From contig NC_134029.1 of the NCBI RefSeq assembly GCF_964204645.1, positions 3,720,001 through 3,784,000 of the forward strand: 64,000 nt of DNA, written 5' to 3'. Within the stretch, counting starts at the first letter, position 1, and every line of letters starts with the position of its first letter. Origin of the DNA: Tubulanus polymorphus. Its lineage: Eukaryota > Animalia > Nemertea. Under the pieces are notes generated by a model. That model had not been told where the DNA came from. It saw only the letters and a program-made list of their open reading frames with translations, and did not search any database. Shown here in pieces: positions 3,391 to 49,421 of this stretch. The position numbers and the translations under genes are program-made.

Positions 3391-4506
3391 TTACATGTCT
3401 TCATCATCGGAATCATCGGATTCTTCCATCGAAACCTTCGCGTATTTCTCAGCTTCGAGATGTACGTCAGCCGGTACGAGTTGATGTCTACCGTCGGTGT
3501 CGGCTCCGACCCAACTTAATTCCAGTTCGAAATGCTTATCCTTCACTTCGTCGTGAACCGTATAAATAATCTTCGCCGCTTCCTTAATTAGATCTTTCAT
3601 CGACATATCCTTCATCTTGATTTTCTCGATTTCCGTTTTCGCCGCCTGTTTCGCTTTGCCGATCGCGCAGCCCCAATAACCGTGCGACACGCCTGACGGA
3701 TCGATCAGGTATAATTGGGCGCCGTCTGTCTCGTCATAGGAGGCGAGCAGCGTCCCGACTCCGAACGGACGTACCGAGCTGTACAACGTACATGAATGCA
3801 CGTACATCGAAACGCGCTCGACGAGATGCTTCAGAGGAACGGGACCGCCGAAATTCGATCGGTAATTAGCGGCCTCCTCGCGCGCCGATTCCGCTAGATG
3901 GCGTGAATCGGCTAATAGTCCGGCTACAGCCATACCGACGTGTGTATCGATATGAAATATACGTTTATTCGAACCGGCTTCGTACAACTTCGACGTGACT
4001 AATTTCTCAACGGCGAAAACGATACCATCTTTACCTGGAATAAAGAGAACAATCAAATTAGATTCGCTTAAAGAACAAATATAGTTCAGGTGTTTCCTAG
4101 ATAACCAAAACCCTAAGTACCTCAATCAGTACCACTAGTCTCATAATACATCTCGGTTATAGGAGGACCCGATTGTTGATGCCCCAAAACCACTTTATGA
4201 AATCCGAAATTTACCCAGAGAGCCTGCGGCACACCTCTGCTCTGCCTCTGGTCACACCTATGTTTTGTTCAAATCCTACTCAATTTAGTTAAACCTTATA
4301 AGCTCTTCGTTTTACTAGAGGTTACTAAAACACCATTCAATAATCAATTCAATTACAAGTCATTATTATTATTGGTGCTTACCGCGAATAGCGACTGCTG
4401 TGCCGCTGTTTTCAACCGCTTTCTGCGCGTATTCAACCTGAAATACGCGGCCGTCGGGAGAGAATTGAGAGGCAGAAAGATCGTAACCCGCTCCGATTGA
4501 CGACAT
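3391..4506 (-). CDS. PSMA3: Proteasome subunit alpha type-3 (alpha7), 2 coding exons, 255 aa
   Basis: Exon 1 4506-4383 ([41 protein letters not shown], donor GTAAG) joins in phase 1 to exon 2 4034-3391 ([19 protein letters not shown]...ELELSWV...acidic tail [11 protein letters not shown]). Confidence 0.97.
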
Positions 4507-22004: not shown

Positions 22005-25000
22005 ATGTCGATTGCAGGTCTTCGAAAACAGTTCAATAAAGCCAATCAGGTAATTGATTTGCTTCAGAAATTCCCCGTCTTGCTTTTTATTGTGCGTTAT
22101 GTTGAAGATTAAGTAAAAATCCATTGCCTCGCTTGCCGATACTACACTTTTTATTTGTTTAAAATTGATTTTGATATCATGGATGTGGATATTTTGCCAA
22201 TATGCAGCATTCTAACTAAACTAATAGAAATAATTATGACATTTTTTTATTAGAGGCCAGTTGCTAAGAGTTACTAAAGTTGACAAGAGTTAACCAATGG
22301 ATAGTTGATGTAAGCCTGGTGACAATTAAAAGTTCATTGTTACTATGGTATTTATCCACCAGTTATCTTTAACCAACTTTAAAGCAATTGGCCCCAGAGG
22401 GTTTGGTTTAGGTTTAGGATCCTGAGGATGAGATGCTATCTATATATTGGCCCGGGCTTGAAAACTGCCCTCATCTGAACGAACCATTGGCAAAATAGCA
22501 TTAACTGGAATAGGCCTAATGCTGCATTGGCAAATCATTGCTTGCCTATATCATTATTAGGGCATTGGACGGATTGAGTGGTCAGTAACCTAAATGTGGT
22601 TATTTTCTATCAGATATTTGCATTATTAGCTTAAACTAAAAATCAACATAACCAATGGGACATTAGCACTTACAATTAATTCTTCCTAGTCAAAAGCATT
22701 AAGGTATGTTTGATAGTGCAGGGTTAGGATTTATAAGGGTTTGATGCATAGGCCTGCCTCTGCAGAGACTGTCAAATTCTGATTAGTTATTGAGAGATGA
22801 CCTTCTCGCGATTCAAATAATCGTTATTTCGGTGGGGATAATTGTGGAATTAAAATGGCTGTGGTTGTCCCCAGTCTGCATTACTGGCTGTATGTAGTAT
22901 TGATTGATTGATTGATTGATTTTTCTGCTGATGTATTCACTCGTATACATGTTTGTGTTGTATGCGCGTGGACTCATAGAGAACGGGCAATGCGTTATCT
23001 CGCCACTCCAGATACGTACATACCGGCAGTCACCCATTCATGACAAAATACTCAATCAGTAGTTTATTAGCGTTCATTCATTCATTCATTCATTAAACAT
23101 ACACAGTTCCAATCATAACCCGCAGGACCGCAAAAACTCATTCATTTATTCCAACAACTATACTATTTTGTCTGATAGTAATTCAGTCGGGTAAGCTCTT
23201 GGAAATGGTTTTTACTTGTTTGAAAAATTTATTGTTGCGCTTTTTGAGATCGATTGAATTTTCTTTTTTCAGTATGTCAGCGAAAAAATTGGCGGAGCGA
23301 AAGGAACTGAATTGGAGGATGATTTTCTGGAGATGGAACGGGTAAGATAAGTATTGAGATGGCGAAAGCTGCCATTTTAAATTAGATTCAAATAAACTAC
23401 AATTGCGCAAGCATTTTTCAATCATTCACATTGATGCCAATTGCGCTTGTTCCTGTTTAACACGGGCCAAATTTGACTTTGGTCAGTCCGTCCAGTCATT
23501 CTGAATCAGGTTCATGTCGTTCTTTTGTAGAAAATCGATGTCATGACAGACTTTGTCGACAAAATCATCAATCAGACTCATGAGTTTTTACAACCAAATC
23601 CAGGTAACAATATTTTCTAGGCCTATCGGCAGAAATTCTTTAAAGAACCTAGCTCTATCTACTAATATGTAAACCAGGGGCCTGTTGCACAGTCGTGACT
23701 TAAGTCCAAAAGTGTTCTTAAATCTTAAGACTGGTCTTAAGTTGTGAGATTGGCTATAGAACTAAGTTAGTCTTAGACTGGTCTTAAGTCTAAGCCATGA
23801 CTATGCAACCGGCCCCAGGCTATCATAATCCATCTTCGCATGATTCTCTATCACCGCATGGAGGAACATGATTCATATTTACGATGTATATTTAACCAAA
23901 AAATTACTCACTCAAGGTATCTCTCCCCTTCAAATTAAACACTAGTCATGAAGTTTTTTGCTATGTCTCAACTTAATATAATTTTGATCCATTTATTACA
24001 TTAATAGGATCAGGTAAGATCAAAATATGTGAAAACAATTTAGCTTAGAGATGTGCGAAAGACGATTCACGTACGTTCGTAGCTTTGGGTGAATTTAGAT
24101 TTTTTTCGTTTTTAGGGTAGAGGTATCTTGAATTGAAATGATTGGGTTTCTTTTATCATTCATTGATTTAATTAGGGTTATTTTATAACATCTACAAATT
24201 GCACACATAGGTAATTAGGGTTTAACATTGTGATGTTTTAGTAATTTCTATTCAAATAATATTTACCATTCCAATAGCCTATTAGGAAAAATTTAGAAAT
24301 AGCCCATACTTCACTGCATGTTAGGCCTTTTTCAATTGCTTGGAGTACGGGGGAAAAGAAAACAGACTTTTGAAAATCAAAGGGGTCATGAAAAAAGTTT
24401 CAAATTTTGGAAGTACTATGGAAAAAATTTTTTAGAATGAAAATTGTTTTCAATTGAATTCAAATGATGGAGAAACAAAGAAAAGTAACTTTTTGCAAAT
24501 TAATAGATCAAAAGTATCGAGAAAATATGTTGTTGTTTTTTTTCAAAATCTTGTTGAAAACCCAATGGAGACTAAAAAGTGATTTCTTGGGACGATACGT
24601 TTTGGAGATTTCTGGGCGACAGATCTGTACTCCAAGTAATTTAAAAAAGAAAGCCTTGTCTAGATTTTTGCATGATATCAAGCAATTTTAACCCACAGCT
24701 GATTGATAATTTATGAAATGCAAGTGAGATGCTCGTATATCAGTACAAGTTTCTAGCATATTCTTTGCAAGATGATTTATTAAAGCACTTTAGCAATGAG
24801 AAGCTCCTTTGCTGCCTCAGCACGGAATGCATGCATCACGACCCATCATCTCAATAGAAATGAACGACAATCATTCATTATTTGACGTTATCGATGCAGC
24901 GGAGCTTGTTACAGACTAAACCGAGGTTCTTCATCTTATTCTATCGATCAATGTTCAATTATACATATCTATATATGTGATGTTCCTCACCCCCGCAATT

Positions 25001-28000
25001 ATACATGCGATATACGCACGACAAACAATAGTCTTCAGAAATCTAATTCCATTTCATTCTTAAATCAATGTATTTCTGAGCAGAGATGAGTACACGTAGT
25101 ATATATCTGTGGCTCTGACACGGACAAGGCGAATATATCCTCGATGAAATCTATACCAGGGTTCTGTCTGTCAACGATATCCATGGCCATATCTTAACCA
25201 GGGTTCTGACTAGTATATCCCTGACCGAATTCGGGCCAGTGTTCTAACAAGATTATGCCTAGCAAAATCTATACCAGGGTTCTGTCTGTCAACGATATCC
25301 ATGGCCATATCTTAACCAGGGTTCTGACTAGTATATCCCTGACCGAATTTCGAGCCAGTGTTCTAACAAGATTATGCCGAGCAAAATCTGTGCCAGGGTT
25401 CTGATAACGAGGATCTCCGTGACAATATCTAACCAGGGTTCCGTAAAGAATATCCCTGACCTAATCCGTACCGGGGTCTCGTCAAGATTATACCGGGCCA
25501 AATCAAAATACCTTTGATTACATCGATTGATATGTGTAAGCTGTATGAATGTTCACAATTAATAATTAACGATCGGTTAATGTGGTGTTTACTAGACCTA
25601 TCAATTGATCATAAATTCATCGAAGCCTTATTTGTATTTATATATGTGTATACCTGTACTGTATATATTTGTGCTAACAGGTCACTGGAAAATGGACTAA
25701 CAACAGTTCAATATTCAATATTAGCCTAACACGTACTTAGCAAACCTCGAATGGTTTTAAGATAAGCTGTTCGTTTTTAATTGAGTTGTTATCTTATCTG
25801 GCCTCGTGTAAAAACATCGAACAAAAGTGTCTCGTGTGATATGGACTGATTTTATCACGACGCCTCAAGACTTTGTTGTATGCTTTTAAGTATTGGCGAG
25901 TAATGTTGAAGCACCTTTTTTTAAACTGAGGCATTTGCCTCGGTGTCAGTCTCAGCAAGGTTAATACTATGGCTGTGGACAAAATTCACTTAATGTTTTG
26001 GGTTGGTTAAAAAAAACAGCGATTTAAGAAAATACATCCTTGTAATAAAACAATATTTGACGAAGAATTTGAAACCATGTTGGCCCTACATGTACTCCAG
26101 GGTTCTTATGGATCAGGGAAAATTTGCGAATTTTTCTGACATTCTTGAAAATCAGGAAGAAGTGGGGGAATTTGAATTTTTGGTGGACTGTTGTTCTTTT
26201 TGGTGACAAGTGGCAAAATGAGCAAACTTCTTGACAAGTAACTGCACCAAGAGGGGATATCATATAATTCAGCGAATGTTTGGTCATAGGTCAGGGAAAT
26301 GTTGGGGGATTTGGGATTTCGTGATCTGTAAGGACCCTGGTTCTCGGCGAACCTATGCCGAAGTTCTATATTCAGTATGTTAGTTTTATATCAATACATG
26401 TTTTATTGTCAGGACTGTTATTGATTATTTCTCAATACACAGTAGAATTAACCCATTTATTCACAGCTGTTCTTTAATCTCAATCGATTTAAAAACTACT
26501 TATTCTGAACTCGTTCCATAAAATGGACTTAATCCTGTTTAAGTGTGCAGCTACTTGGCAACAACTGAAAATAAAGAAGTTATCTTTCCCTTTTATGAAA
26601 ATGAGCACCACTCATTATTTTACCCAAGGATCATTCCAATGATGGGAAAAGGCGGCTCCAGAGCCTTTAAGACTAATTTCAAAAGATCAAATTAAATCCA
26701 AAACATATCTCCAGATTTAAGACTTATGTTAGCTGGTTTTAGTGTCACAATAAGCATAGCCTGTCATTGATAGCCTACATGGAACGAAACTAAACTAAAA
26801 TCCGATGGTTGTTTTTTCAGGTCACAGAGTGAAACTGGCGACGATGAGCGCTTATCAGAAAATGCGCGGTCAAGCGCGAAGTCTTCAATATCCACAACCA
26901 GAAGCAGTAATGGCTGAAACTATGAACAAAACCGGTTCCGAATTCAATGATACTTCTCCATTCGGTATGTTTCAAAAATAAATGGGTTTGAGCTTGGCAA
27001 AAAATTGTTGGGTCTACTATATTTTGTGAGTAATTTTCTAGTGATGTTTACTTGTTTAGTACCGCTCTTTGTTTGAGTGTAGGAAATAGCAACTTGACCA
27101 ACATTATAGATATTTTACTGAGGAGGCAGGATGTAGCAGTGGAAGTACTTACCTGACCTATAAATGGGTTGAATGATTGATGATATTTTATTAGTCCACC
27201 GGGTCTGACTGCTGCTCTGGGACTCTTTGAATCGCATTGATCCAATTTTAAGATGACCAAAAGCGGGGATCAGATCGATGTGAAAAATAGATGAAGTTTA
27301 AGAAATTTCATTTGAATCTGTCCTGATTTTGATCAGCAACAGCTAATGTTATTGTACCTTGACCTGAACAGATCTGAAAAACATGAAAAATCCTGGTTTC
27401 TTTTTCTTGTGAAAAAATCTGACAAAGGCATAAGGATGTGAAAAATGTGAAAATTGCAAAGTTCATTGATCCGACCCCTTTGAAAGTAGAAGAGTCGATC
27501 ATTCCTGTCGAATATTCATTAAAGATTTGTATATTTTGTGTTGTAGCGATGTCGTTAGCGGAGGCTGGTGAATCGTACAAACAGCTCGCTGATATCAAAT
27601 ACTCCCTCGAAGACAACGTCAAACAGAACTTCCTCGAACCATTACAACATTTAGCGACGAAAGACCTAAAAGAAGTTGCTGTAAGTTTCTACGTAGATTA
27701 TCACATTCATGCATCGTAGGTTGGCTTTTCCGGTCCATTTGTGGCATTTTTAATTTCTTTTTCATCAGTAGAAAATTTTGGATAGATTTTAAGTTTGAGC
27801 ATAGACAATACAAAAAGGAATGTCTATTGATTTTGTGTGGAGCGGATGCTTGTTTTTTTGTCGCTGCTTGCGGCTTCGATGCTGCAACGAAGTCATGTAC
27901 GCCTATATTAATCAAGCGAAAACTGTTGCCAGACAAAAACGACAGACGGACAATCCGGCCGGCCGCGAACCCTCTGTTTAGATGATACACAATATCTGAC

Positions 28001-31000
28001 GGCGTTATGAAGATAAACAACCGCGATCAGATAAACTCAAATGATCCGCTCGAACCATCCGCAATAAATGATCAATGATTATGCATCAATTCTGTACCTA
28101 CATACGTGATCCACGAACCTGTAAAAACCAGTGTAAACCACTGCCTGTTTTATTGACTGCTGTGCAGGATGTTTTATGGTTGTTGTTTGTTTTATCAATA
28201 CTCGCCTCTGCACATAAGTTGCCCACTTCAATACGATGCTTTTATAAACTGGAGTCTATTAATCCTAATATGATTATCGTGCATAAAGGGAATACTTCCT
28301 GATGTATATATAAAAGGCTATTGGTGGATATAGAGTGAGCGTTCTCTTATAATGGCTGTGACCATCGCTTACATTTCATCACACCTCGAATCCCAAATGG
28401 TTATTACCAATAATCTCAAGAGCTGAGTGGAAGTGTTAATAGACTTCAGTCCAGCGATGTGTTTCACCTGAGCCGCAAATTTGGTAGTCAGCTATGCAGG
28501 GTTCGCACTAATTCCTAAAAATCCTGGAAAAGTTACGGAAATTTGTAATCATTTTTTCAAGGTTTAGAAAAGTTACGAAATTATGAAAAAAGCTAAAGAA
28601 TTTTAGAAATGAGGTCTGCATAATTTATACTTGTGGTTTTAGATAGATATGTCGGCCGGTTTCATTTCTGCCTTTGGACATTTGCCCTGCATAAGGTACG
28701 GAAAATCAAAGACTGAAATAGTATGAACCCTGGCTATGTGTTGACATATTATAGTGAACAAGAATTTGTCTTCATTTATCGACCATTAGGTATTGTATAT
28801 ACAATACATATAACCCATCCTACATTATCCATCATAATCAAATATTAATTTCTTCTGTTTTCACCAGTGGGTGAATGTCTTGTAGCGTCTGTCAGGCATC
28901 GCTGCATCAATCATGGTCGGATGATGATATATTCTCTCACCCGGTCGATCATATTCATTTGTAGCGGAATTATTTTCGCGGTTGCCATCTCTTAATTCCG
29001 GCTCGGAGTCCGTGCGGCGATTGCCAATTGACTCGTTTAGGTTCGATACGATGTCATCATTGAGATGTCTCTCTCTACTGTAATATATAATGTCATCCCC
29101 TGTGGTGATGATGATTGTAGTCGTTGTGGTATCACATTTCATCTTATTTGAATTCGATGTCATCTTACTTAATGCTGCTGGTAATTTTAGATTTAACCCT
29201 TTCCGATTCGTTTGCTATATTATCAATACCGTGTAATCCGTACAGGAGAATGAAAGCCTGCCAATCGATGGTCTGGCCCCTGGATTTCATAAGAAGAAGA
29301 TCTCGAACAGAATTTGACTGTCAGTAGTCGCTTTGGTTTCGAGGAAAATAATTTGGCTACTTCTTCAAGCAAAGTGTTCTGACATGAAAGATGAATTTGC
29401 GGCCCAGATATGGATAGTATGAATACATATGTCGTGTATCTAGGTTGTGATCACATTAAGTACATTGGAAGCAGCACAGATTGTGTAATGTCAACTAATT
29501 AAATGGTAGTTTCATTAATAATGTACTTTTATATAACCCGATACAATGAACCATGCCAGATTTCCGAGAGAACTTTTCCAGGTTTTCGTGATCATGTTTT
29601 TAAGCGGATTGAAGCCTTGACTATTCGAACTTACCTGGACCAGTCAAATTTGGCCAATGCCTAATAAATGCTATCAAAATGACTGTGGCGAGTGAGGTGA
29701 GACATTTTCGGAACCGGTTAGCTTTCGAATCGAATGAATTTGGCATGGGCATAGGCTCATTTGGCCTCAGTGTGTTGATGCCTGCGACTAATCTGGCACA
29801 GGCCAAATTGGCCTAGGTCAAAAATGCTCGCGTGAAGACGGCTCGGTATCATTTTCTACCGCCTCCTTCCTTCTTTATAGTGTACATGATGTAACTGATC
29901 TATATACATGGCAATTCCTCGTGTCTACGCTATAAATAGAATATTGTTTATTGAGAAACTGTTTCGACAAACAAGGAAAAATAGAGATTGTATATTATGT
30001 GTGCGGGTGACACGCTGCCCTCTCTCTGTGAGAATCTAATATCGATTCAATTCGGATAAAGTCGTCTCCCGGTTTATGTTCTCCCGGTCGTCATCCGATG
30101 ATCGAACCGGTCGGTATTGCGTTTGCTGATTTGCTTAGACGTAATACGCAATACCCCCGCAGAAATGCTGAAAGCATCCAGTTTACAGCGGCCCCGTCTA
30201 ACAGCCAGCGCATGCACACTTATGTGATACATATATTCTGTGAAAGTCACATTCGTTGACTGACGTCGTTGGAGATTGTATACGGTATATGAAAGACTGG
30301 GGAAAGCATCGATTTAATGTCACTATTAGGCTAAGAAAAATGATGCTTTGTTTCTCCTAATCGGGCAGGTCGCTTTTGTAAACTGCGATAAAATTTGTAA
30401 TCAGTTCATTTCTATAACTGCCGGGTCCGTTATTGTTAGCTTGATCATGATGTTAAAAAGTAATTTACACGGTAGATATGCGGTCGAGTGGTCAACTTTT
30501 TAGCTTCGCAGATATAAGAAACTAGGTATAAATTTTTTAGCCTTATGTTCGTTAGAATGCTGTGATTTGTAGAAGATTCCAGGCATTTATTGCTAGCGCT
30601 AGCTGATCTCTCTCTTTCTCTCTCTCCTCATCCTCTCTCCTCATCCTCCTCAGGATCCTTCACTCTCTCCCCTCCAGTGTAACTCTCCATTCTCCTCTCT
30701 CCTTGTCTCATGTCAAATGAATTTGAGGGAAATCTGAAAAATTGTCTTTTTGTCAAAATACTTCGCTAAGATTTCCGGGTTCTATCAATCGAGTAGAATG
30801 AACTCATGCATTATGTAGATTCACTTTCATCGGCAGCAGCAGCAGCAGCAGAGTTTGAGCTGATTAGTGCCGCAACTTTCTCAATACAGGATTAGACATT
30901 GCATAACTGTATGAACTGTAGATAAAGGGTCTGTGGTAAGCTGATTGAGTTACTATTGACTTACGGTCCCATTAGTAGATGACAACTGAGTCTTCTCATA

Positions 31001-34000
31001 TCAGAAAGTACAGTAGGCAGATTTCGTGTCTGAAAGCTGTCAGCGTCACCCACAACTGTAGACAACCTGTAGGTGTAACGTCTCTATCGGATCCTGTCTA
31101 GGGGTCTCGTGGGCAGAAGGTGAAACTAGAAACATCATGTGTCCCCCTATTCACGTAACACTGTCGTTAGGAAATACAGCTCAGTTCCGAGTTCATACTG
31201 AAAATCAAATCGTTGCTTTTATAAAGTTGAATCAGTGATTAGTAATGAAACTCGTGAGTTAGTTGAGTGAGCGAGTGAGTGCTGATACGTAATAATGTCG
31301 AATGCAGTGATGCAGTAATAAAAGAGCTGTATCTCCTTCCTTCACAGTTCATTAAACGCTAATCTCTACTGCAGTCTTACTGTCTGAATGTGCATTTGTC
31401 ATAAAACGTTTGCGACACTCATCGAATCTATTCCGATGTACGACGAAATGTATTTCGTATTTCAACAGGGATTTCAAAGCACTTAAGTGGTCAAGACTTT
31501 CTGGCCCCTTGACCACTGTTTTCACAAAAAGCTGCTATTTCGTGTCATCAATTCCGTCAATTTCATGTTTTCCATCCCGATATACATTAAGAAGGAGTGG
31601 TATCAAAGGCTTTTTTCACCTTGGGGAACATTTTCAATTAATCATTTCGTTATCAGTAGTTACTGCATGATTTTACCATTAGGTCGTTAAGTTTATGAGC
31701 TGAATCCACATATTTTGATCCACGCGCGATCAATCTTACGTTAATTAATTACAGCGAAACCTTACATTTTACATTGGAATTACGCTGTGAAAGTGGGTTC
31801 TGATCAATTGATGCTTCCTCTTCTAATGGACTCGTTTATCTCTATGGAAACATTCAGATTGATTCATAAACCAGACAATGAAATCCAGCAGCATTTTGGA
31901 GCCATGTAGATTAACATGTATTTAGTAATGTTATATAGTAAAGTATCATATTTTCTTATGGTATGTTTGGAATTGTTTTGGAGGCAGTGTTGTACTATAT
32001 ACGGCCTGAATTATATCCAGGTTATCAAACTCACGTAAGCCATTTACCATCACTGCATGCCAGAGTCGGTGTTTGGTAAAGCCAGTCCATCGGACAATCC
32101 GTTCAGCTATGACTCTATCAGTATCTAAGAAACTTGTTGTAATCATAAATCTTAACTTCCCGTTACGCGTTCATTTCAAGCATTATTTATTTAGTGGGAA
32201 AGTTGCTCGATGAACTTGAAGAGACTTATACCACAACCCAGGCGGATACATTGTTTTACCACGTGTACACATGATTGTACGGTAATTCGCATCGATTTTG
32301 TAATCGATGTCTGCATTTATCGTGATTCCAGCGTTGGAGAATTTGATTGAAGCAGTGATGTATGTTCTCTGGTATATCGATGGCTCTTCAGTAATTACCA
32401 ATGACACCGATATACGAAGCGTGTTTCTTTTTGCACTGCACCGTATTTATATCTGATTACCGCAAATTGCTGATGACATTTCCATCAAAGGAGAGGGAAA
32501 CAGCTTTCTCGTAAATTCAGTCCCCGCGGCGCGCCGCAAGTGTATAAAATAGCTGGTATGGCTTACGAGGGAAATTAGTCTCGCGTCTCCTTATTGCTGG
32601 TTGATTCTTAGTTATGACATTCCAGACCGGCTTCTACGGTTATGAGTCTAAACACAACTAGTAGAGGACTATTCAGTCTGTTATTCATTAGACCAGGTAC
32701 CTCTAAGTGAGTTGAGAGGGAAGAAGGATAAAGCCGCGATCACAGTGTGGAGACTGCCTGTCACACTGGCCCGGACCGGACACGAGTCAAATTTAGCCTA
32801 TACCCTAAGAAAGGGTTCACCGGCGAATCACTTATTTGTTACTAATAATGCTGTGGCAAGCGAGTCAGCTCCAGAACCAATAAGCATCCTCATAGAATAA
32901 TTTGACCCGTGTCCAAATTTTGGATGGCCGTCGTCTGATTTTTTGGTTGGGCCAAATTTGGCTACAGTGTGAGTAGATGGTCCTGGTCAAAAACGCTTGT
33001 GTGATCGTGACCCATAGTGTACAGGCTTCAAACCCGGCATGACTTGGTGGTACTCCACACTGTGTTCCACACTGTTTAACCTAAAAAATCCTACCATATC
33101 ACAAGAAATAATATTCTATTTATGTTTTTTTTAGCATCATCGGAAGAAGCTCCACGGACGACGTCTTGATTACGATTGTAAAAAGAGAAAACAACAAAAA
33201 GGTGAGAAAATGTGGATATCTGTTGTAAACCCTGAGATCGGTTATACCTCGACTGTGCTCATTTCAACACCATTATCAAAAGCATTTTCATTATTCCCCC
33301 CCCCCCCCCGAAGAGATCTATTTTCGCATTAACTTTACAATTTGAAAGCTCAAAGATCGGAATGAAATTGCGTTGTTATTAGTTCTCTATCGCTTTCTGG
33401 CAGCGAAGTTAAATCGCCTGTCGACATTATATCGAGTTTAATTGAAATTTGCGGCAACCCGATACAATCCAATACAATCCGATACAATCCGATACAGCTG
33501 TATCAATTTTCCACGAGATGAAAACGTCGCCGTCGTCGTCGCAGATCTCGCGACTGTATCCTAGTAACATGTTCATCACATAATTGAAATTTTATCATCA
33601 TTCGAAAAAGATACCGCTAGTAACTTCCCCCTTCACTGCTCCAATTTTATTATTCAATGTATATTCCAGTTTTTCTAGATAAAATCTTTAATTTCTCACT
33701 TTTGATTCTGAAATATGTATTTGTACCTGTTACTTATTTGATTGATTGATTCGGGTTTAATTTTGTGTCCCCTCTTATCTCGCCGCACCTGCCTGTAATG
33801 GAACAGAGTATGGTTTTTAAATCGAGATTCATGCAACAGATATAATTGGATGGTCGGTCAAATTTACAGAATTGTTGTTTTTAAATCGGAGTACCAGGTA
33901 GACTACCTACCATCTAGCCTGAACCGGCGAGCAACTGATTGGGTTTTTAAAAATTTTTCTAGGCTGCCTAACTTAATACATTTGGAAACCCTTTATCAAA

Positions 34001-37000
34001 CTTCAATTTCTTCACGGCAGCATCATGAATTGACAGATAGAAAGTATTTGAGGATGTTAGGATGTTTCAAAAGCTTCTTTCAAGAGCAGCTGTCGCATAT
34101 GGCTAAGAAGATTTTAGTTGTGACAGGGTTTTTTTTATTGAAGCAGAATATCAGTTTTTTGTATGAGAATTTATTTTCCATGTGCCCTGCCACCCGCAAC
34201 CCCCTCCCCCTGGCCAGTCTGTGTTATACACCAGCATATACCTCCCCCTCAAGCTCCCATCACTGGCTGTTGCCAGGAAGGTCTTACAGTCACATAGTAC
34301 AATGAATAGGTTTCCGATGATTGCATTAGATTACGATTGCAGTGAGGATTATGACTCCAGTGAGGATTACAACTCCGACGAGGATTACGCGCAGTTCTCT
34401 GCTTTCGTTTCTTAATCAGCGGCGCGTTTAATCACGACTTGGAGCTCATTCATGACTTCTATTCGTAAATACTGATGATGTCGATTCGAATTTAATCTCG
34501 CATTCAATCTTCATTCATTCTGAACGCAGTTCATTTTTCATCTTCAAACAGATTTCATTTACTGTCGGTAGATCAATTCTCAGCTTATCATAAAGTCATT
34601 TCTACTGGATAATACGGAAATATTCTGGGCCGAATTTAGATTCCTTTACGCATTTGATATGACGCAAATATCAAAAATGATTACCATAACTAAATATGAC
34701 TGAGTTTATCGGAACGAAACTAGTTAAATGTCTGTCGATTATCATTTCTTCGATGTTCATTTTCATAATTTTCTCTCTTCGCCTGGGGAGAGGATTTGGC
34801 CGCGATCAAATTTGGCCCACGCTTAACTAGAGAGCGCATTCACTCAGATCAATCACTCGTTACTAAAATGGTATCAAAATGATGCTGCTGCAAATGAGTT
34901 GAATCACTTCAAGAACCAGTTACCATTCACACAGAATCATCTAATCTGTGCTAGAATATGGTGCAGGCCTGGTCTGACGTTTTCGGACGGCCAAATTCGG
35001 CCAGTGTCAAATAGGCACAGATTGTTTTGGCACGAGTGTGATTGATTGGCCCCAATCAAAAATGCTTGTGGCGTGATCGCGGCTTTTAATGAAACATCTG
35101 TTTTAAGCCCAGTCATGATCTTATAAAGAAACAAATCAATTTTACAAGTTATGATTATTTGAATTATGCCTGGTTCCTTGAATTGGTTCATTCTGTGTAG
35201 ATGCACCATGATAAAACATCCTTCCTTCCGCTACATCACGCATATCGCTTTCAAGTGTCAGTCGTGCGACCCCCGTAATCGAAACGAAACGATCGAGGCA
35301 TCTGACAGGAAATTAGAGCTGGACCATCCGACTGAGCGACTCTCGATCGGTTTATTACTGATTGAGACCAGACACGACTACGCAACGTCGGACGTTATTT
35401 CGATTTCGAGATATCTCGAAAAATCATCATCTGCCACGAAGAACGATGAACAAATGATTGCGATATTCATGACATCTCCGGCACGCAGTTTCTCTTTTAT
35501 TTGAACACGATCATGATTTCGTATATTGTATCATTTACAGTACATAGCTGTATTAACTGTATTACTCTATGTGCTGTGTTGAATCTAGGTAACCCCCGTT
35601 CACCCCTAGAAAAATCCTTCTATAGATAAAAATTCCTGCCTGGTAAAACAATTTCTCAGACAATAGCATAACTCTTTTCATAGAAAACTGGATTTGGGAT
35701 GATTTTTATTTAGGGGGATATTTAACGAGCTGATTTTTATTTTATTGGCCCGTTACTGCTGTGTCGGTCCCCAAATCATCATCACAATGAGTCACACGTA
35801 ATTAATTACAATGAAATACGTAAGACCCTTTATTATTCTGGCTTCTTTGGACGTATTGAGTAATGAATTTCTGATGATGATAGCTGTGAATGTTGAGGTA
35901 TTCAGACATTACCTATTGAACTGTGGGCCGTAGTAGCAATTCATTCCCCCTTTGAATTTCAATAGACAATTGGTTAGGAACGTGATGGAAAGTCTTGGAA
36001 TTTGGTAGATTCAGTACGGGAACACCGCAGAAATGAACACTGCATCATACATAGTTTTAACTCATATCCATCAACTTCATCATTACATTCAGTTTTGTTG
36101 TGATTATTGCAGGTGCAAAGAAAGGTAAATGATAGAAAGTTCAGACCATATATCGGTATATACTGATATACGTAGATCTAATGAAGTGCGCACAACACGA
36201 TGTTAATATTCTCATCTTTAATCGTTCACAATTAGTGTTGATAGTTTTTTTTCGCGAACGTTTTCCGATAATAAACTGCTTCTCATTAATAACTGTTCAG
36301 TGGTAATATTAATTACTACTAATAACTTTTGACCTCTTTTTTCAATATTCGAATTAACGTATTGTAGAAGGTAACTATATCGATCTCGTCCAGCACCCGG
36401 TGGACGATGGTTCTAACAGTATTTTCAATATTTTTACTAAGATATTTAACGGTCGTTTTCATTCGTGGTGAATAATTATTTCTCGGGCACCGATGGTTAA
36501 ACGGTGGTCGGTACGTGTTTCTTCGTTCGTTTTTCGCTACTGGGAATTTTTTCGCTAATTTCTATGCTGAAAACTATTATTTTCATATGATTCTGTATTT
36601 ACGGTAATACTGAGGTTTGGATTCGTGATATTTAGTAGCAATTCCAGTAAAAACTGATGTAATTCATATGTTACTGATATGGAAATCTAATAAGTTCTAC
36701 TGAAATGTTTTCATTTTTATCCGATGATGTCCTGTTGTTTAGAAAGGCTCCAGAATATTAGGCAATATATATAACACTAACATGAACACTAACATCATAT
36801 TGATAAAACATTGAAAATGCTTTCAGGAGCTAGTCCCAACATAACTGGTAAAATTAGAGTCTAACCCAGAAGTGTGGAACTGGCTCCAGATATATATCTA
36901 ATCCCTGATTCTTTCTTCTCTCTTTGTCTCTCTCATTCGATTGCCGTATTTAGCTGCAGGTAAATTCTTTTTCATTCTTCCACTAATTATGCATTACAAG

Positions 37001-39237
37001 AAATACTTCCGAAATAGATATCCAAGAAAGCTTCACCTACTAATAATGATATATCCGTTTCGTGACGTTCAAACAGCTAAATTCTATCATTTTCTCGGCA
37101 TCTTTTGAATTTCTGATAAAAAAATATTCCTTTTCTATTATAATTTGAAGCTGCCGGTAAGTCGTGATAATGTTGTCTGCTAAAGATGCGTTGATGTATA
37201 CCTAGGGCTTTAAAGCAGTGTATAACACATATATACAATTTTGCTTATTTTCTCATTGAGTCGTGTGCTTTATCCGGATATTTGAATAGAAATCAATATT
37301 AGACGATTATTTAGTTCTATTTCTTAAGTTCGCTAGTTTAAAAATGGATCATTTAAATCATAGACTATTAGCTACGCTATCGTGTCTTCCTACACTCTAT
37401 AGTTGTGTGAATTATCCCTGTAGGTGGCGCTATTAACGAAGATGAACTACACATAGCCGAAGAGAAATTCGAAGAATCAAAGAACCTTGCGGAGATCGCC
37501 ATGCAGAATGTACTCGATAATGACGTAAGTCTCAGAAAACGAGCCAGTATGGCCAATTTATGATAATTATTATGATAAATTATTGAGCTTAAAATCCATG
37601 TAAAATATGGTCATTGGCTTTACATGATGAAAAAACCAAGACTGGTTTAATTGAAAGCTTAGCTGAGTAAATTGGTTTCAAGATTTTATTAAAAAGCATC
37701 GATTGATAGACTAGATGTGATTGAACTAAGTGAAGTATTCCAAACTACAAAGGCAGAGTACTACATCATCCATTGACTTCTAAGCATGATTCCATATTCC
37801 CGCGATATATACCGATATGTTAACGGTTCACATGTATCTCGCGTCTTTAAGATTGTTTTTTTGTGCGCAGGTTGAGCAGATTTCCCAATTGGCTTCGTTC
37901 GTCGAGGCTCAAATTGACTATCATCGACAAGCGCAAGACGTGTTACAAGGACTTTTCGAAACGTTACAAAACAAGTACGTCTTATCAACCCTGGCGAAAT
38001 ACAGGGGTGACTTCTAACCCGTAGTAGCAACAGAAAGGGGCATCATTCCAGCGAAAAGGGCACCAAAAACTATATACAGTAGACTCTGCTTGCTCCTGAT
38101 CTTGCTGGACCAATAAATTTGGTCCGATGTACAAGATTTCCTGGAGAAACTGGTCGTTATCTCGATGAAATGGAATACAGAAATTTGTAATATATCGTCC
38201 GGAGCGTGGTACAATCAACTTCAGGGTGAATGGAGTCTACTGTATCTCCTATTATTCTCCATTCTCTTACAGTCTTATAGCAGCTTTCTGCAGCTATAAA
38301 CGTTACTTATTTCGCGGTTTAATGATGAATAATTTCAGACAAGCCGAAGCGGCGAATCGACCGAGAGTCCAACGTGAGAAGAAAACGTTTAATCTGTTGC
38401 CTCGCAGTAACAACGACAATATCAGCGACGCCGGGTCAGACTACGCTATATCTCCGATGACAACTCCAACGCATCATCCTAACAAAGGTTTGTATTCATA
38501 TCATTTTATTTATTTGCGTACTTAATCAACATCAAAGCGGAAAAATGAATTGAATGCTGGAAAAGTGTTCAGTAATCATTTAACAAAACATGGTATTAGT
38601 TATATGATATATATTCAGTTTAACAAATAATACTGGTAACAATATTATATCATTTTATATATTTTATAGAGCATAAAATTGATAATTGAATAAAACTAAA
38701 ACATCAGCAGAAATGCACGTTGAAAGATGGTTTACCTTTAAAAAAAAACACTTGGTCTGTTCAAAATTGAAGCAGACTAATTCTAGAACATTCTGAATAG
38801 TGTAGTGTGGACACGGCTATAGACTATCCTGGAGCCAGTTGCACAGTCATGGCTTAAGTCCAAAAATTGTCTTAAATCTTAAGACTGGTCTTAAGTTGTT
38901 GGATTGGCTATAGAACTAAGTTGGTCTTAGACTGGTCTTAAGTCTAAGTCATGACTATGCAACCGGCCCCTGAGGATTAGTTTGAAAGATGGTTTTATGG
39001 TTTATACATACACGGTAATTATGAGATCTAATTTTCTGATGATTTTTAGACTTGACGACTCCGCAGGCGCGAGCGCTGTACGACTTTGAAGCCGAGAATG
39101 AATCAGAACTGGAATTCAAAGAAAACGAAATAATCACGTTGACCCAACAATTAGATGAAAATTGGTATGAAGGTGAAATTCATGGTCGTACCGGTTTGTT
39201 TCCGTGTAATTATGTCGAGGTTATTGTCCCATTGTAG
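22005..39237 (+). CDS. SH3GL/EndoA: Endophilin A (N-BAR + SH3), 10 constitutive coding exons
   Basis: Exons 22005-22049 ([15 protein letters not shown]), 23273-23341, 23531-23603 (EFLQPNP), 26821-26964, 27547-27680, 33135-33201 ([19 protein letters not shown]), 37424-37524, 37871-37974, 38339-38487 and 39050-39237 (SH3 [17 protein letters not shown]...GLFPCNYV). Phases are consistent. Confidence 0.95.
22254..22394. mobile_element. Harbinger-like MITE
   Basis: TIRs ggccagttgct / agcaattggcc with flanks tag/cag. Confidence 0.55.
23678..23815. mobile_element. PIF/Harbinger-like MITE, CAG target-site duplication
   Basis: TIRs GGGCCTGTTGCACAGTC / GACTATGCAACCGGCCC with CAG on both sides. A near-identical copy is at 38832-38969. 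Confidence 0.85.
25147..25504. repeat. Minisatellite, 3 x ~120 bp, each built from three ~40-bp ccagggttctg subunits
   Basis: Units 1 and 2 are nearly identical and unit 3 is diverged. Confidence 0.85.
26098..26339. mobile_element. CAGGGT-TIR non-autonomous element
   Basis: CAGGGTTCTTA / TAAGGACCCTG ends with flanks gtactc / gttctc. Confidence 0.6.
28497..28732. mobile_element. CAGGGT-TIR non-autonomous element with 6-bp TSD
   Basis: CAGGGTTCGCAC / GTATGAACCCTG ends with GCTATG duplicated on both flanks. Confidence 0.7.
28861..32435 (-). CDS. Putative nested antisense gene in endophilin intron 5, >=6 exons, ~306 aa, 5' end unresolved; possible tandem-RWD (KNL1 C-terminal-like) protein
   Basis: Exons 32435-32260, 32124-32035, 31515-31381, 31055-30965, 29439-29230 and 29077-28861 have AG/GT boundaries and five phase-matched junctions, giving one open frame ending TFTHW*. 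Confidence 0.6.
36113..37156 (+). other. Candidate microexon cluster of endophilin A (12, 3, 6 and 6 nt)
   Basis: gcag|GTGCAAAGAAAG|gtaaat (36113-36124); gtag|AAG|gtaact (36368-36370); ttag|CTGCAG|gtaaat (36954-36959); gaag|CTGCCG|gtaagt (37151-37156). All are phase 1-1, matching the flanking exons. Confidence 0.65.
36827..36886. mobile_element. 60-bp Harbinger-like mini-MITE
   Basis: TIRs gagctagtccc / ggaactggctc with CAG on both sides. Confidence 0.6.
38832..38969. mobile_element. PIF/Harbinger-like MITE, CTG target-site duplication
   Basis: Copy of 23678-23815 with CTG on both sides. Confidence 0.85.
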
Positions 39238-43905: not shown

Positions 43906-46900
43906 ATGTCATCTTTACACGATGGAACGGCTTCAGGTACTGATAATTTGATAGATTACAGTAAAAAAAATCAGCACCCACCAATTAAATTTTGTTGATT
44001 CACGGATTGACCGACGCGACAAAGAATCCAAATTGTCCCGTTTTTTAAAGTACACGAAAAGGATCGTTATTGGATACCTGGTAATGTGTTCGAACTTAAA
44101 GTTGACAAGAAACTTAATCCCAATAATGTAGTTCTGATGTTTTCCATTTTCAGATCCGATTCCTGTTGGAACGTCGCCTTTAAAACCTTCTTCGAAATCT
44201 GGTCTCAAACAAGGTCAGTTCGTTACCGAATATAGGAGTGACTGCTATTTTTAGGTGTCCGTATTGATTAAGTTGCAGATTTTGTCAAATTCCTGAAATG
44301 TAAAGTGATATTTTCAGCTCGTTTGCCGTTTGTTCAACTCGGTCAGAAACCGATCGTCACCGCCCCGGTTCTCGCGTCAAAAAAACGTAAACTTTCCGAT
44401 AACGAAATTCCCGCCCCGAAAGTAATCAAAACGAATAAATCGAACGCTTTAAAATCGGCGACGAATAGAAAAGAAGATAACAAAGATAACGTCTACGTGT
44501 CCGAAAACGAGGTCAGCTCGAGTTCGGAAACGGAAAATATCCCTCTATCGGCTTTAACAACGAAACCGGCGTCTAGACCTGGTTTACTCGATCGGTACAT
44601 CGAAGCCGCCCAACAACGAGAGGTTTCGACTTCCGTAAAGGATGAAAACGAAGACGGCTGCGTTTCCCTTCTCGACGAAAAGGAAAACGAAAAGGAGGCG
44701 ATCGATAGAATCGTCGCGAGAAACGACAAACTAGATCGGTTTATTTACCGCACGAAAAATAGCGACGCGAAAGTCATCGTTGATAATGATGACGACGAAA
44801 AGAAGGAGGAAACCATCAATGAGAAGGATGATAGTGACGATGATGATGCGCTCGAAGCGGCCGATATCTCGGCGATGTCCGTCGATGAAGAGGTGTCGAT
44901 TTTGATGGATAAAGATGCCGACAACAGTATCAACGAACAGAACACGTCCGTAAACTCGAAACGCAGTATAGAAAGCGAAGCGACGCCGGCTAAGAAAGTC
45001 GTTAAGTTACATGAGGGTCAGTCACCTGTAGGAGTCACAGAGTCGACTTCAAAATCACCGGCAATCGTCAGAAAAGTGAGTACTCGCGCAATAAGTGAAG
45101 TCTAAGGTGTTTGTAGCCAGTCTGGCAAAGTTTGAAAGTGCTGAATTAGGAATATGCCTACTTCTGAATCATTCGTGCTGCAAAGTGCTTACTTTTGGAC
45201 TTCAGGTTTCTTAAAAAGTTAAACTTAAAAACGCTGATATTTGACTGTTAAAAATGTTGACTTTTGCTTCAGTCAGACTGCTACAAACAGCTGTTGTTTC
45301 AATGTTTCTCTTTTCACTCTGTGAGCAAGGGTGAACTGAAAATTAAATTGCGGAAATATATGTACAATCTGTTTCCTGTTTCAAGATTTTTCTTGCTGCG
45401 TGCCATGAGTTTAGTGTTGTTATTTTGATATTGAAAATTGTGTTTATTCCACCAAAGACTCCGGCGTCTGGTAAGAAGCTCGCCCTGGAAGCCGAGAGGC
45501 AGCGAAAACGCGAAGAGAGAGAACGAGAAAAACAAGAAAAACTGAGACTTCGCGAAGAGGCGAAACTCGAACGAGAGCGAAAAAAGGATGAAGAAAAGGT
45601 AACATTATTCAATACTTTAGCCCTGGGTGCAAGGTTAGGTAATTGTAGTTGGTTGTTTATCATAACTTGGCTTCATTCCAGAAACGAAAAGAACAGGAAA
45701 AACTACAGAAAGAGAAGGAAAAACAGGATAAAAAAGAACAAGTCGAAAAAGAGAGACTGGAGAGATTGAAGCAGAAAGAAGATGAGAAAAAGAAGAAGAA
45801 TGAAGCTATTGAGTGAGTAGATTGAGAGGCATTCAGTCATCGTTTTCTGCGGTCTTTCCGGAGTGAAATATCTTGTTTCGCTGATTATTCAGGGAAGAGA
45901 AACGTCGAAAGGAGGAAGAGAAGAAATTGAAGGAAAGCGAAAAAAATAAAATCCAGAATGAAAAATTGCGCGATGAAGAAGAAAAGGTATGTTTTAATCT
46001 GTTCATTTCCAGTTGTGGACAGTTCCTTATAACTGATAAGGCCAGTATTACAACAACACAGAGTGGCGTATTGGAAATTTCTTGTTTTGCAGCCATGTTC
46101 TTTTATCATGTACCCAATGCCACATTGATACTCAATATACAATGTATGATTTATAAACTGTTCCCTTAAATCTATAGATGACCATATTATCTTCTGTTGT
46201 TATATGACAGCAAGTCTCCAATACTTGAGGGCAAACAAACTAAAACATCATGTGCAAGACTTTTATTCATTTGAGCGTTGATGACATGAAATCGTCTGAT
46301 TTTTGGTTTATTTTCGTTTTACTGCAGATGAAGAAACAGCAGAAATTACAGCAATCTTTTCGAAGTTTCTTCGTGAAGAATGATACCTCCCCTGTTCTCA
46401 AGGTATAAAAAGAACCTTCAGTGTTTTTTCATTTAATTGCAGTTGATTCTAAATCTAATTTTAGAAACTAATGCGTAATTTTTGCATTCAGACGACGGTC
46501 AAACAGTTCACCACGAACGGATTCTTCCGCGATTTCCAAGTTAAAGACAACATGAGGTTGGCTCCGTCGACTCGCTTTGACTCGGCGAATCACGATTTGA
46601 AAATGGAGGCGTTCGACGATTTGCTGACGAAACAAGATTCATCAACCGCGGAGCTGTATTTACACCGTATCAAATCTACGTCGTATGTTAAAGGCAAATC
46701 AGGGAAAACATGGAAATTGTAAGTAATTTACAGAGGCTCATTTGACTTACTTTTGGGTTTTTATTTATCATTCGTAGAATGGCCACAGTGTGGCCACTGA
46801 CCTGGAAAACATGGAAAATTCAGGGAATTCGGATATGTTATTGACCACACGCTTCTTTATCAATACATAATTCATAAGAGTGAAGAAATTGTAAAATTTT

Positions 46901-49421
46901 AAACCAAGAAATTCCTTGGATTTACTCAGCGTATTGGTGTGTTATGATATTGAAAAATCAAGGAAACTCAGGGGATTTCTAAATGGGTGGAAAGTGGCTA
47001 CCCAAACGTTCGAGCTAAGTCCTCGTTAATACGCTCTTATTGTTATATCAGTGAAAATGAAAGTGACGTGGTCGCAATTGACGACAATTCTGCAGTGAAA
47101 ACGAAAGCAAAACTGATACAATTCCACGAGAATTATCGACCTCCGTACTATGGCACGTGGAGAAAGAAGAGCTCAAAGCTGAACGCTAGGGACCCGTTTA
47201 GAAAAGATGAGGTGAGAGAGAAAGTTTTGAAACAATCTTGCGATAATGACTCGGATTCAACTTTTAATCAACTTTTCGAATTTTCAATAATCTTTCGTAG
47301 AATTTGTTTGATTATGAAATCGACAGCGACGATGAGTGGGAAGAAGAGGAACCAGGAGAGAGTTTATCTCACTCTGAGGTAAAGAAAATCCTGTGAAAAT
47401 GCTATCAGCTTACTCCGCTCAAGTCGGGCTCCAGTCCAACTTGAGAGTAATATCCAAATTACTGGGCAGATATACATAAATTTCGACTAAATGTTGTTCT
47501 GAATATATTTGATAATTAGGGTGAAGATGAAGATGAGAAGGTCGGCGGCGGTGATGATGCAGATGACGATGATGAAGATGGTTTCTTCGTCCCGCACGGC
47601 TATCTGTCGGGCGACGAAGGTTGCGAAGATGATGAAGACGTAAGGAATATTCTCGTATTAAGATTCAGTTTGCAGATGAACACATTTTGTTTGCCCTTTA
47701 TTGAGATATGAAATGTTCGCGATTGTAGATGAGTCCGGAGAAGATGAAAGCTGATCAGCAGCTGAAAGCTCGTCAGTTCGAGATGGATTTAAAGAGACAA
47801 TGTAAAGCGCTTGTTCCGATTATAATCGGATGTTTCATCGATGATAAACCAGGACCGATACCCGTACAATACAATCAATTAGAAACTTATCGGGTAAGAT
47901 TCGATCCAAGGGATTGAACAAAATTGTACCCATTTTGACGAAAAGTGCCTATAGAATGAGTACTCAAAATTTTGGGGGTCCTACAAAAGACTGATCAGAT
48001 TCTCTGGCCTTCCGACTGTCTTACACAATCTCAGATTTGATGTTGTTGTTTTTAGGCTGTTCCTTTGAATGACGGTAGTTTTCCTATTCCAACCTACCAC
48101 AGTACGAAGGGTTCATTACCTACTGATGCAGTCAGTGGGAGCCCGGCATCGAGAGCTGCCTCTCGAGCTCTTAAAAAACCAGTCCCCGAGGAAGGTAAGT
48201 TATTCAATAGTTATCCATCGATCAAGTTTTTGTATTCTTTTTTTGGAAGATCGTTTACGCAACCCAGAACCAGAATTTCCATTCTGTACTTCAATTTTCG
48301 ATTTCAAAATAAAACCCCGTTTCATTGCTGGCAGGTGTAGTGGGTTTGTTAGGAACTATCCTCGCTTGCCAGGATGATAGTTAGATGATTAGGGACACAC
48401 CAAAAATTAGCACGAAAATCAATCAATTAATCATACGTTAACTTTATTTTCAGCTATGTCGGATTTGATTCGTTTGGTGCACGGGAATATATGTGGAATC
48501 AAGAAACTCATTCGCGAATTCCGCGAGTACTGGAGACTGAAAAACGGTTGCAAACCGTCTTCAGAACTCGCAGAACAGAGTCAAGAGAATAACGATAATA
48601 TCGGAGTAGATTCTGGAGTCGCTCCGATGGAAGTCGATGCTCCGGTTATTACCGTACCATCCACTCCGACTAGTCCAGCTAATGTCAACGCGTCCGATTA
48701 CGAGATATCTAAACGTCAAGTCGAATTGAAGATCAACGCGATCGCGCAGTATAAAAAGGACTCGTCATATCCGCGTAAATGCTGGTACGTTAATCCTGAC
48801 ATGTTGAGTCAGTACAAGTTAACTGACCTGCCGATACCGGGTCAATGGCAGTACGTTACTAAACAACCAGTATCACGCGCTCCAACCCCACTGCAGCAGA
48901 AGGACGAACGCGAAGCGATGGATACCTCGACTCCAACTGCAACGTCGAAAACATCTGCGGGAATTTCAATTAAACAGTTCACCGTAAAGAGCTCACCGGC
49001 GGACGCGTTTAAATCGATGCCCATCGCGGAATTGACTCCCCCGAAACCAATTCCCGTTATAAAACCGCCCCGCCGAATAACCTTGACCTCATTTCTAAAA
49101 CCGAACTCGAAACCGACGGATATTTCATCTGCTGAGGGAGCGACCTCCACTGAAGGGACGACCTCTGCTGAGGGAGTGACCTCTGCTGTTCTCGGGACAT
49201 TAACGACTGGTGAATCATCAGTTGAATTGAATATGATGAATGGCAGTCAGAATTCAGTATTTCAGGCTCGACCTGAACACACCAATACAGTGAGCTCGGC
49301 ATTACAGGCTTGGCCTGCACTTGTCAATACCGAGAGTTCAGCGTTACAGGCTTGGCCTGCACGTGTTAATACACAGTTACTAGATGATGTCAGTGATGAC
49401 GATATTATCGTATTAGACTAA
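43906..49421 (+). CDS. CHAF1A: Chromatin assembly factor 1 subunit A (p150)
   Basis: Exons 43906-43936 and 44154-44213 splice to give KQARLPF (PIP1). Also a KER coiled-coil region, QQSFRSFFVK (PIP2-like), KLIQFHENYRPPYYGTW, DYEIDSDDEWEEEEPGESL, DGFFVPHGYLSGDEG and the winged-helix LIRLVHGN...CWYV. Confidence 0.93.

What the first reader, a model, noticed from the sequence alone, without database searches (positions are those of the whole stretch)
28861..32435. Hidden multi-exon antisense gene nested in endophilin intron 5, possibly a divergent KNL1-type tandem-RWD protein
Seen: six minus-strand exons (32435-32260, 32124-32035, 31515-31381, 31055-30965, 29439-29230, 29077-28861) with donors GTAAAA, GTGAGT, GTAAGA, GTAAGT, GTATTG and AG acceptors. 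They join in phases 1,1,1,2,2 into one ORF: ...[103 protein letters not shown]...[42 protein letters not shown]...TFTHW*. An optional in-frame 57-nt exon (31822-31766) also fits. The ORF track shows only disconnected fragments. Inference: the beta-strands / long helix / beta-strands / helix pattern, and segments such as ASIKF..ITI, YRTI, HRL and ExxKRF, resemble my recollection of the KNL1 C-terminal double-RWD region. If so, this could be an RWD-only kinetochore-protein paralogue. No start codon or 5' exon could be fixed, and an in-frame TAA lies just upstream of the first exon.
Basis: partly seen in the sequence, partly recalled or inferred. Interest (0 to 1): 0.78.

Follow-up and report, generated by a model that had tools for sequence, protein, structure and literature searches.

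The report
Possible orphan gene inside endophilin intron
Six stretches on the opposite strand of an endophilin intron join into one open reading frame of about 300 codons, which likely marks an unannotated nested gene for a predicted binding protein with no detectable relatives, but the splice signals are weak, no RNA could be checked, and the proposed kinetochore identity stays untested.

Summary
The six minus-strand segments, their GT/AG ends, phases and the 305-codon frame are as described, inside intron 5 of endophilin A. Whether they form a gene is roughly an even bet. For: such a chain is rare in shuffles of the 3.6-kb span (1-2 of 150), exon 1 has a strong beta-strand pattern, and donors are fair. 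Against: in shuffles of the whole intron it is common (29-33 of 200), all acceptors lie in the lowest tenth of the window's 49 known sites, and codon signal is weak. A neighbouring protein is in NCBI/UniRef while these exons are not. New: a local start (ATG 32485, 75-nt intron) gives a complete 297-codon frame. No search found a relative. Resemblance to double-RWD proteins is by eye only (motif test p about 0.02), and a short KNL1 paralogue with tandem RWD is already known as Zwint-1. Odds: working gene about 0.53, RWD kinetochore paralogue about 0.13.

The parts
32520..32540 (-). GC-rich element, candidate promoter (inferred)
   Evidence: Only non-coding place in the window with a 16-mer of at least 15 G+C and 3 CpG; 35-55 nt upstream of the ATG at 32485. 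Function untested.
32461..32485 (-). Candidate first coding exon (model A): ATG at 32485 and 32479, phase-1 donor
   Evidence: Donor score 4.3; a 75-nt intron to the acceptor at 32385 (score 0.3) skips the TAA and gives a 297-codon frame. Shortest known intron in the window is 78 nt.
32260..32435 (-).
   Evidence: Acceptor at 32435 scores -3.4, at 32385 0.3; donor 4.3. AF2 single sequence: strands 7-17, 23-34, 37-48, pLDDT 66.5.
32035..32124 (-). Exon 2 (90 nt, phase 1-1)
   Evidence: Acceptor 0.2, donor 6.7; another AG lies 8 nt upstream.
31766..31822 (-). Optional in-frame exon (57 nt, or 54 nt from 31819)
   Evidence: Frame kept; donor 8.5, acceptor -5.4 or -1.9.
31381..31515 (-). Exon 3 (135 nt); carries the segment resembling the central helix of double-RWD proteins
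   Evidence: Acceptor 1.1, donor 5.5; 8 of 11 class positions matched, 99 of 5000 shuffles do as well. One amino-acid-changing variant at 31434 in both runs of sample S2.
30965..31055 (-). Exon 4 (91 nt)
   Evidence: Acceptor -0.3, with a stronger out-of-phase AG 11 nt upstream (3.0); donor 7.5.
29230..29439 (-). Exon 5 (210 nt, phase 2-2); predicted strand-strand-helix-strand-strand
   Evidence: Acceptor 0.1, donor 4.0; AF2 pLDDT 46.2, low confidence.
28861..29077 (-). Last exon with stop codon; polar, probably disordered tail (inferred)
   Evidence: Acceptor 3.8; amino-acid composition more protein-like than non-coding translations, p 0.002.
33789..33832 (-). Alternative first exon (model B), beyond host exon 6
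   Evidence: ATG and phase-2 donor (7.2) joining to 32435 give 320 codons; would make the two genes interleaved.
22005..39237 (+). Host gene endophilin A (11 exons); intron 5 is 27681-33134
   Evidence: Joined exons give a 361-residue protein ending in an SH3-like segment (family name from recalled sequence features); exons 5 and 6 match 69-100% to relatives in fetched loci.

Best explanation
Six segments on the opposite strand of endophilin intron 5 join into an open frame, and they likely form a real but weakly spliced, fast-evolving nested gene whose product of about 297 residues is predicted to be a non-enzymatic binding protein with an alpha/beta domain and a flexible tail. Inferred working: transcription would start near the GC-rich element at 32520-32540, translation at ATG 32485/32479, and a 75-nt first intron would remove the in-frame TAA. 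Weak acceptors and head-on transcription with the host would keep output low and confined to cells where endophilin is quiet, for example the germ line. The open sheet face and the tail would bind partner proteins. Shown: coordinates, sites, open frame, single-copy status. Inferred: transcription, splicing, start, fold and function.
For: Compact chain rare in shuffles of its span (1, 1, 2 of 150) and longer than in 18 of 18 non-coding controls. Exon 1 has 4 alternating hydrophobic runs against a shuffle mean of 0.8 (p 0.0002; one of 34 pattern statistics looked at), and 2 of 152 non-coding 58-residue frames match that; the shorter model-A exon keeps 3 runs (25 of 5000 shuffles, 6 of 403 non-coding frames). 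AF2 builds a three-stranded sheet from exon 1 alone at pLDDT 66.5 (no control sequence was folded). Composition is more protein-like than non-coding translations (p 0.009). Donors lie in the top 1-11% of background GT sites. A complete local start exists next to a unique GC-rich element. Exons are single copy, and the repeats seen in the span fall in proposed introns (weak, as exons are only a quarter of the span). Nested genes are common in animals (PMC13343718 passages).
Against: All 6 acceptors score at or below the 10th percentile of 49 known acceptors and look like background AG sites; 2 of 5 internal ones have another AG within 14 nt, against 3 of 49 known. Good donors with ordinary AGs is what a hand-picked chain would show. 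The codon model gives -0.06 bits per base (known genes -0.04 to 0.19) and no exon beats its null. Positional base asymmetry is 0.41, below all 8 known genes (0.65-1.28). Whole-intron shuffles reach 296 codons in 29-33 of 200. The neighbouring receptor protein is in NCBI/UniRef, yet searches with exons 1-2, 3 and 5 returned no matching protein, so public annotation apparently did not call this gene. The one well-supported variant in an exon changes the amino acid.
Confidence: 0.4

Rival explanations
1. No gene: the chain is a chance join of open stretches in a long intron, built from consensus-like donors and ordinary AG sites.
For: Background-level acceptors, no codon-model signal, about 15% of whole-intron shuffles give a chain this long, introns on this strand are A-rich and not T-rich like known introns, not annotated although a neighbour is.
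Against: Beta-strand periodicity of exon 1, composition of exon 6 and of the whole, rarity within the 3.6-kb span.
Confidence: 0.35
2. A divergent double-RWD kinetochore protein, most naturally a Zwint-1-like paralogue of KNL1 or a CENP-P-like protein that lost its coiled coil and would dock on Mis12 or pair with KNL1.
For: By eye, colinear hydrophobic matches to KNL1 strands and helices and an ungapped 30-residue register match of exon 3 to the central helix of Zwint-1 and CENP-P (supplement sequences read). Exon 1 folds as a beta-meander, the core of RWD. 8 of 11 class positions matched, 99 of 5000 shuffles.
Against: The same pattern reaches 8 or more in 35 of 276 non-coding translations and 9 in the unrelated receptor protein. 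Family invariants are missing by eye: the YP loop, the last-helix W and the D-aromatic pair of Zwint-1; the H, FSS and AKF positions of KNL1; the HxxPxFI of CENP-O; the W and R of the CENP-P helix. About 30 extra residues lie between the first sheet and the long helix. No coiled-coil-like frame lies upstream on this strand up to 36100.
Confidence: 0.13
3. A recently dead gene: the frame ran from ATG 32485 straight into exon 1, the TAA is a premature stop, and the acceptors have started to decay.
For: Two ATGs lie in frame 10-12 codons before the TAA, and the strand pattern is strongest when all of exon 1 is coding. The TAA is in both samples.
Against: Five acceptors eroded while 305 codons stayed open is not the expected order of decay, and the 75-nt intron removes the TAA without invoking damage.
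Confidence: 0.12

Closest known systems
Intron-nested, opposite-strand protein-coding genes of animals (PMC13343718, passages read: 659 internal genes in Drosophila, 247 in mammals)
   Same: Whole coding region inside one intron of another gene; here on the opposite strand.
   Different: No transcript, annotation or relative supports this one; the same intron in 6 other animal loci is only 0.08-1.2 kb and holds no relative.
Zwint-1 (non-mammalian), the short KNL1 paralogue with tandem RWD domains (PMC11189300 and PMC6601020 passages; PMC5579357 supplement 3 sequences)
   Same: By eye: a beta-meander, a long helix ending in a basic-x-basic-aromatic pattern, then three strands and a helix; similar total length.
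   Different: No coiled coil, no YP loop, no conserved W in the last helix, about 30 extra residues, and a 70-residue polar tail; no profile or structure hit.
KNL1 C-terminal RWD pair (Pfam Knl1_RWD_C; name recalled)
   Same: Scattered colinear matches to vertebrate and deuterostome KNL1 by eye.
   Different: No MELT region or coiled coil in the model; matches are mostly to residues that vary among KNL1 orthologues, invariant ones are missed; no Pfam or PDB hit.
CENP-O / CENP-P
   Same: Hydrophobic register of the central helix.
   Different: Signature residues absent by eye; no N-terminal coiled coil.
TOPOVIBL (TOP6BL) (PMC9665070 passages and section 8 part 1; PMC9671922 passages)
   Same: Fast-evolving, hard to detect; one segment of exon 6 fits 4 of the 6 REC114-binding positions named in the paper.
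   Different: Both tryptophans of that motif are absent and no three-helix SPO11-binding region is evident.

Membership tests
Nested protein-coding gene | Coding region wholly inside one intron of a host gene | tested here: met
   28861-32485 lies in endophilin intron 27681-33134; model B would cross host exon 6.
Nested protein-coding gene | Splice sites and codon signal like those of the genome's genes | tested here: inconclusive
   Donors fair, acceptors in the lowest tenth, codon signal between noise and known genes.
Nested protein-coding gene | Spliced transcript or conserved frame in relatives | not testable with these tools
   No RNA holder listed; no genome held; no relative found.
KNL1 | Long N-terminal region with MELT repeats and coiled coil before the RWD pair | tested here: not met
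   Absent from all three complete models; no long minus-strand frame upstream in the host gene; no coiled-coil-like frame to 36100.
Kinetochore double-RWD proteins (KNL1, Zwint-1, CENP-O, CENP-P) | Tandem RWD fold | tested here: inconclusive
   Only single exons could be folded: beta-meander for exon 1, low-confidence exon 5; best Z 4.3 and 4.0, unspecific.
Kinetochore double-RWD proteins (KNL1, Zwint-1, CENP-O, CENP-P) | Significant match to family profiles | tested here: inconclusive
   No Pfam hit on exon fragments; fragments of 29-71 residues have little power. Class-pattern test p about 0.02, not specific.
Zwint-1, CENP-O, CENP-P | N-terminal coiled coil | tested here: not met
   No convincing heptad frame on the minus strand 32440-36100; a more distant exon is not excluded.
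Zwint-1 | Binds KNL1 and localises to kinetochores | not testable with these tools
   The host's KNL1 was not available and the spliced protein could not be modelled.
TOPOVIBL | Three-helix SPO11-binding region and C-terminal helix with two tryptophans | tested here: not met
   By inspection against the positions named in PMC9671922 and PMC9665070: neither tryptophan, no long helical region after exon 5.

The most novel reading that the evidence does not exclude
A ribbon worm keeps, hidden antisense in an endophilin intron, a stand-alone double-RWD protein of the KNL1/Zwint-1/CENP-P family that has shed the coiled coil and signalling regions, and acts as a germ-line competitor or modifier of kinetochore docking on the Mis12 complex.
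Probability: 0.12. Interest if true: 0.6.

Novelty: new member of a known kind. Interest (0 to 1): 0.27.

Why it matters
If real, this is an unannotated orphan gene in a genome that has public annotation, and one more case of a nested gene missed by pipelines. That is ordinary for animals. It would matter more if the product is a double-RWD protein without a coiled coil: the four known kinetochore double-RWD families, as seen in the orthologue sets read here, carry one, so a free RWD pair could compete for the Mis12 docking site and would be directly testable. Present evidence does not reach that claim.

Tried and rejected
Blank searches (weak, fragments of 29-87 coding residues): Pfam on 6 exons, one chance row at E 0.1; Pfam on the exon 1-3 read-through, 0; NCBIfam on 6 exons, 0; PDB sequences on 6 of 6 exons, 0; 5.8-billion protein search with exon 5, exon 3 and exons 1-2, 0 of 12, 1 and 38 candidates; 1.84-billion representatives with exon 1, 6 hits, all multi-stretch repeat matches at 25-41% identity, taken as spurious without further test; Atlas with exon 5, no usable hit; metagenome scan with exon 1, 0 of 515; viral scan with exon 5, 0 of 36; prokaryote genomes with exon 5, 1 of 602, a 22-residue seeded match in an acidobacterial contig (L020), taken as chance and not opened; plasmids, 0; Rfam 22-44 kb, 0. 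No RNA holder listed. Fold searches: exon 5 model best Foldseek E 0.33, best Z 4.0; exon 1 model best E 0.086 (NurA), best Z 4.3, no RWD protein listed; a missing row does not exclude the fold. Nineteen endophilin loci from other organisms hold no relative (best E 0.36). Fold ideas considered from recall and dropped for lack of any hit or signature residue: GHKL/TOP6BL, inactive RNase H or integrase core, PB1/ubiquitin for exon 5, adaptin platform. A plus-strand gene in the same place: longest chain 175-179 codons, rejected. A transposon: exons are single copy and no terminal repeats flank the span. Literature: 0 papers with nested gene + endophilin + intron + opposite strand; that is the only search behind 'not in print'. 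The splice and codon models were trained on 49 hand-set introns and 8 genes of this window; at least one ALG8 donor was set too early (compare). The supplement of PMC9665070 could not be read and may hold invertebrate TOPOVIBL sequences.
Full report
Observation. Reading the minus strand and joining the six segments by coordinates gives one frame of 305 codons and a stop, with AG before each segment, the five stated donors and phases 1,1,1,2,2; the optional 57-nt exon keeps the frame. The host is endophilin A: 11 plus-strand exons from 22005 to 39237 join into 361 residues, and the segments sit between exon 5 (ends 27680) and exon 6 (starts 33135). No whole genome is held. Three DNA runs from at most two samples cover the exons at single-copy depth and all carry the TAA upstream of exon 1. 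Earlier notes call the animal a ribbon worm (not checked here).

Is it more than chance? I built splice and codon models from 49 introns and 8 genes of the window. Donors score 4.3, 6.7, 5.5, 7.5 and 4.0, in the top 1-11% of background GT sites and at the 8th to 63rd percentile of known donors. Acceptors score -3.4, 0.2, 1.1, -0.3, 0.1 and 3.8, where known acceptors have a median of 8.2 and a 5th percentile of 1.7; each is at or below the 10th percentile. They are poor in T, and 2 of the 5 internal ones have another AG within 14 nt, against 3 of 49 known; exon 4 has a stronger out-of-phase AG 11 nt upstream. The codon model gives -0.06 bits per base, where known genes give -0.04 to 0.19, and no exon beats its null. 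G at codon position 1 over position 2 is 0.075 (178 of 3000 null draws do as well), and total positional asymmetry is below all 8 known genes. A scored gene finder recovered most exons of ALG8 and of the kinase gene (scores 148 and 209) but gave the minus strand of this intron only 24 and did not return the model.

The frame itself is moderately unusual. In the 3.6-kb span, 1, 1 and 2 of 150 shuffles give 305 codons with six exons or fewer, and 18 real non-coding strand-regions give at most 198; the thresholds were taken from the model and several controls were shorter. Over the whole intron, with an ATG start and seven exons, 29 and 33 of 200 shuffles reach 296 codons. The peptide is more protein-like than non-coding translations (p 0.009, mostly from exon 6), and exon 1 has four alternating hydrophobic runs (p 0.0002; one of 34 statistics), matched by 2 of 152 non-coding frames. 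AlphaFold builds three long strands from exon 1 alone at pLDDT 66.5; exon 5 gives 46.2. Taken together I put a working gene at about 0.53.

The 5' end. The only strongly GC-rich non-coding 16-mer of the window lies at 32520-32540, and two ATGs in the frame of exon 1 follow at 32485 and 32479, before the TAA. This drops the first predicted strand, leaving three alternating runs (25 of 5000 shuffles). Two other first exons also complete the frame: 32688-32628 (309 codons) and 33832-33789 (320 codons, beyond host exon 6). I prefer the local start because it needs nothing outside the intron; this is inference.

Relatives. None was found in any protein, structure, metagenome, viral, prokaryote or plasmid search; all used fragments. 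The neighbouring receptor protein is in NCBI and UniRef letter for letter (1 of 3 start variants), so the genome has been annotated, and an identical protein of 122-2000 residues holding exon 5 should have been found; the model is apparently unannotated. Of 19 loci fetched with endophilin exon 5, 6 show the intron between exons 5 and 6; it is 0.08-1.2 kb and holds no relative, so the nesting is not shared by those animals. In sample S2 one exon-3 variant seen in both runs changes an amino acid, and two more in one low-depth contig fall in one codon; this is too little to measure selection.

What the protein might be. The spliced protein could not be folded or profiled, so the fold is open. Single-exon fold searches were unspecific (best Z 4.0 and 4.3). 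On the RWD idea: papers describe kinetochore RWD domains as non-catalytic, with a beta-meander, flanking helices and often a YPxxxP motif, and report that Zwint-1 is a KNL1 paralogue with tandem RWD domains outside mammals (PMC6601020 and PMC11189300, passages). A short KNL1 paralogue is therefore not a new kind. I read animal Zwint-1, KNL1, CENP-P and CENP-O sequences in supplement 3 of PMC5579357 and compared by eye. The order of strands and helices and the hydrophobic register agree, best for exon 3 against the central helix of Zwint-1 and CENP-P. A class pattern from those two families matches 8 of 11 positions, reached by 99 of 5000 shuffles, but also by 35 of 276 non-coding translations and exceeded by the unrelated receptor; I built the pattern after noticing the likeness. 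Family-invariant residues are mostly missing, spacing needs several insertions, and no coiled-coil frame lies upstream. TOPOVIBL was checked against the features in PMC9665070 and PMC9671922 and fails on both tryptophans and the three-helix region.

Mechanism. No catalytic signature is evident. If the gene is real, the most likely working is a low-output antisense transcript from the GC-rich element, spliced at weak sites and limited by head-on transcription with endophilin, making an alpha/beta binding module with a polar tail. Nested genes are common, and in Drosophila they diverge in expression more in testis (PMC13343718, passages), which makes the germ line the place to look; that step is inference.

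Verdict. The letters are as reported. The gene is plausible but unproven, the kinetochore reading is a lead of about 0.13, and the architecture is a known kind. Interest 0.27.

Noticed in passing
window 36113-36124 (+): A 12-nt in-frame micro-exon candidate with good splice sites in endophilin, between exons 6 and 8 of my model; may be optional.
   Followed up: no
window 22005-39237 and 43922-49421 (+): Endophilin A lies next to a CHAF1A-like gene; from recall, human SH3GL1 and CHAF1A are also neighbours, which would be old synteny.
   Followed up: no
window about 38820-38970, 23680-23820 and 30340-30530: Short, very high-copy repeats; the first looks like an inverted-repeat element with a similar copy at 23.7 kb; summed depth above 100,000 at 38.4-38.9 kb and 44,000 at 30.3-30.5 kb.
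   Followed up: no
window 43770, 61417, 61353, 61384: A CGCCATnTT motif lies just upstream of both the CHAF1A-like and the cyclin B gene, with two CCAAT boxes before cyclin B; 2 of the 3 such motifs in the window are at these cell-cycle genes.
   Followed up: no
window 3391-4034 (-): Most of a proteasome alpha subunit (PSMA3-like, name recalled) is in one 644-nt exon, long for a genome with many short introns.
   Followed up: no
window 58045-58830 (-) and 60403-60820 (+): Two uncharacterised coding segments between the glycosidase gene and cyclin B.
   Followed up: no
window 25140-25480 (+): A short tandem array of about 40-nt and 120-nt units in endophilin intron 3, seen by eye.
   Followed up: no
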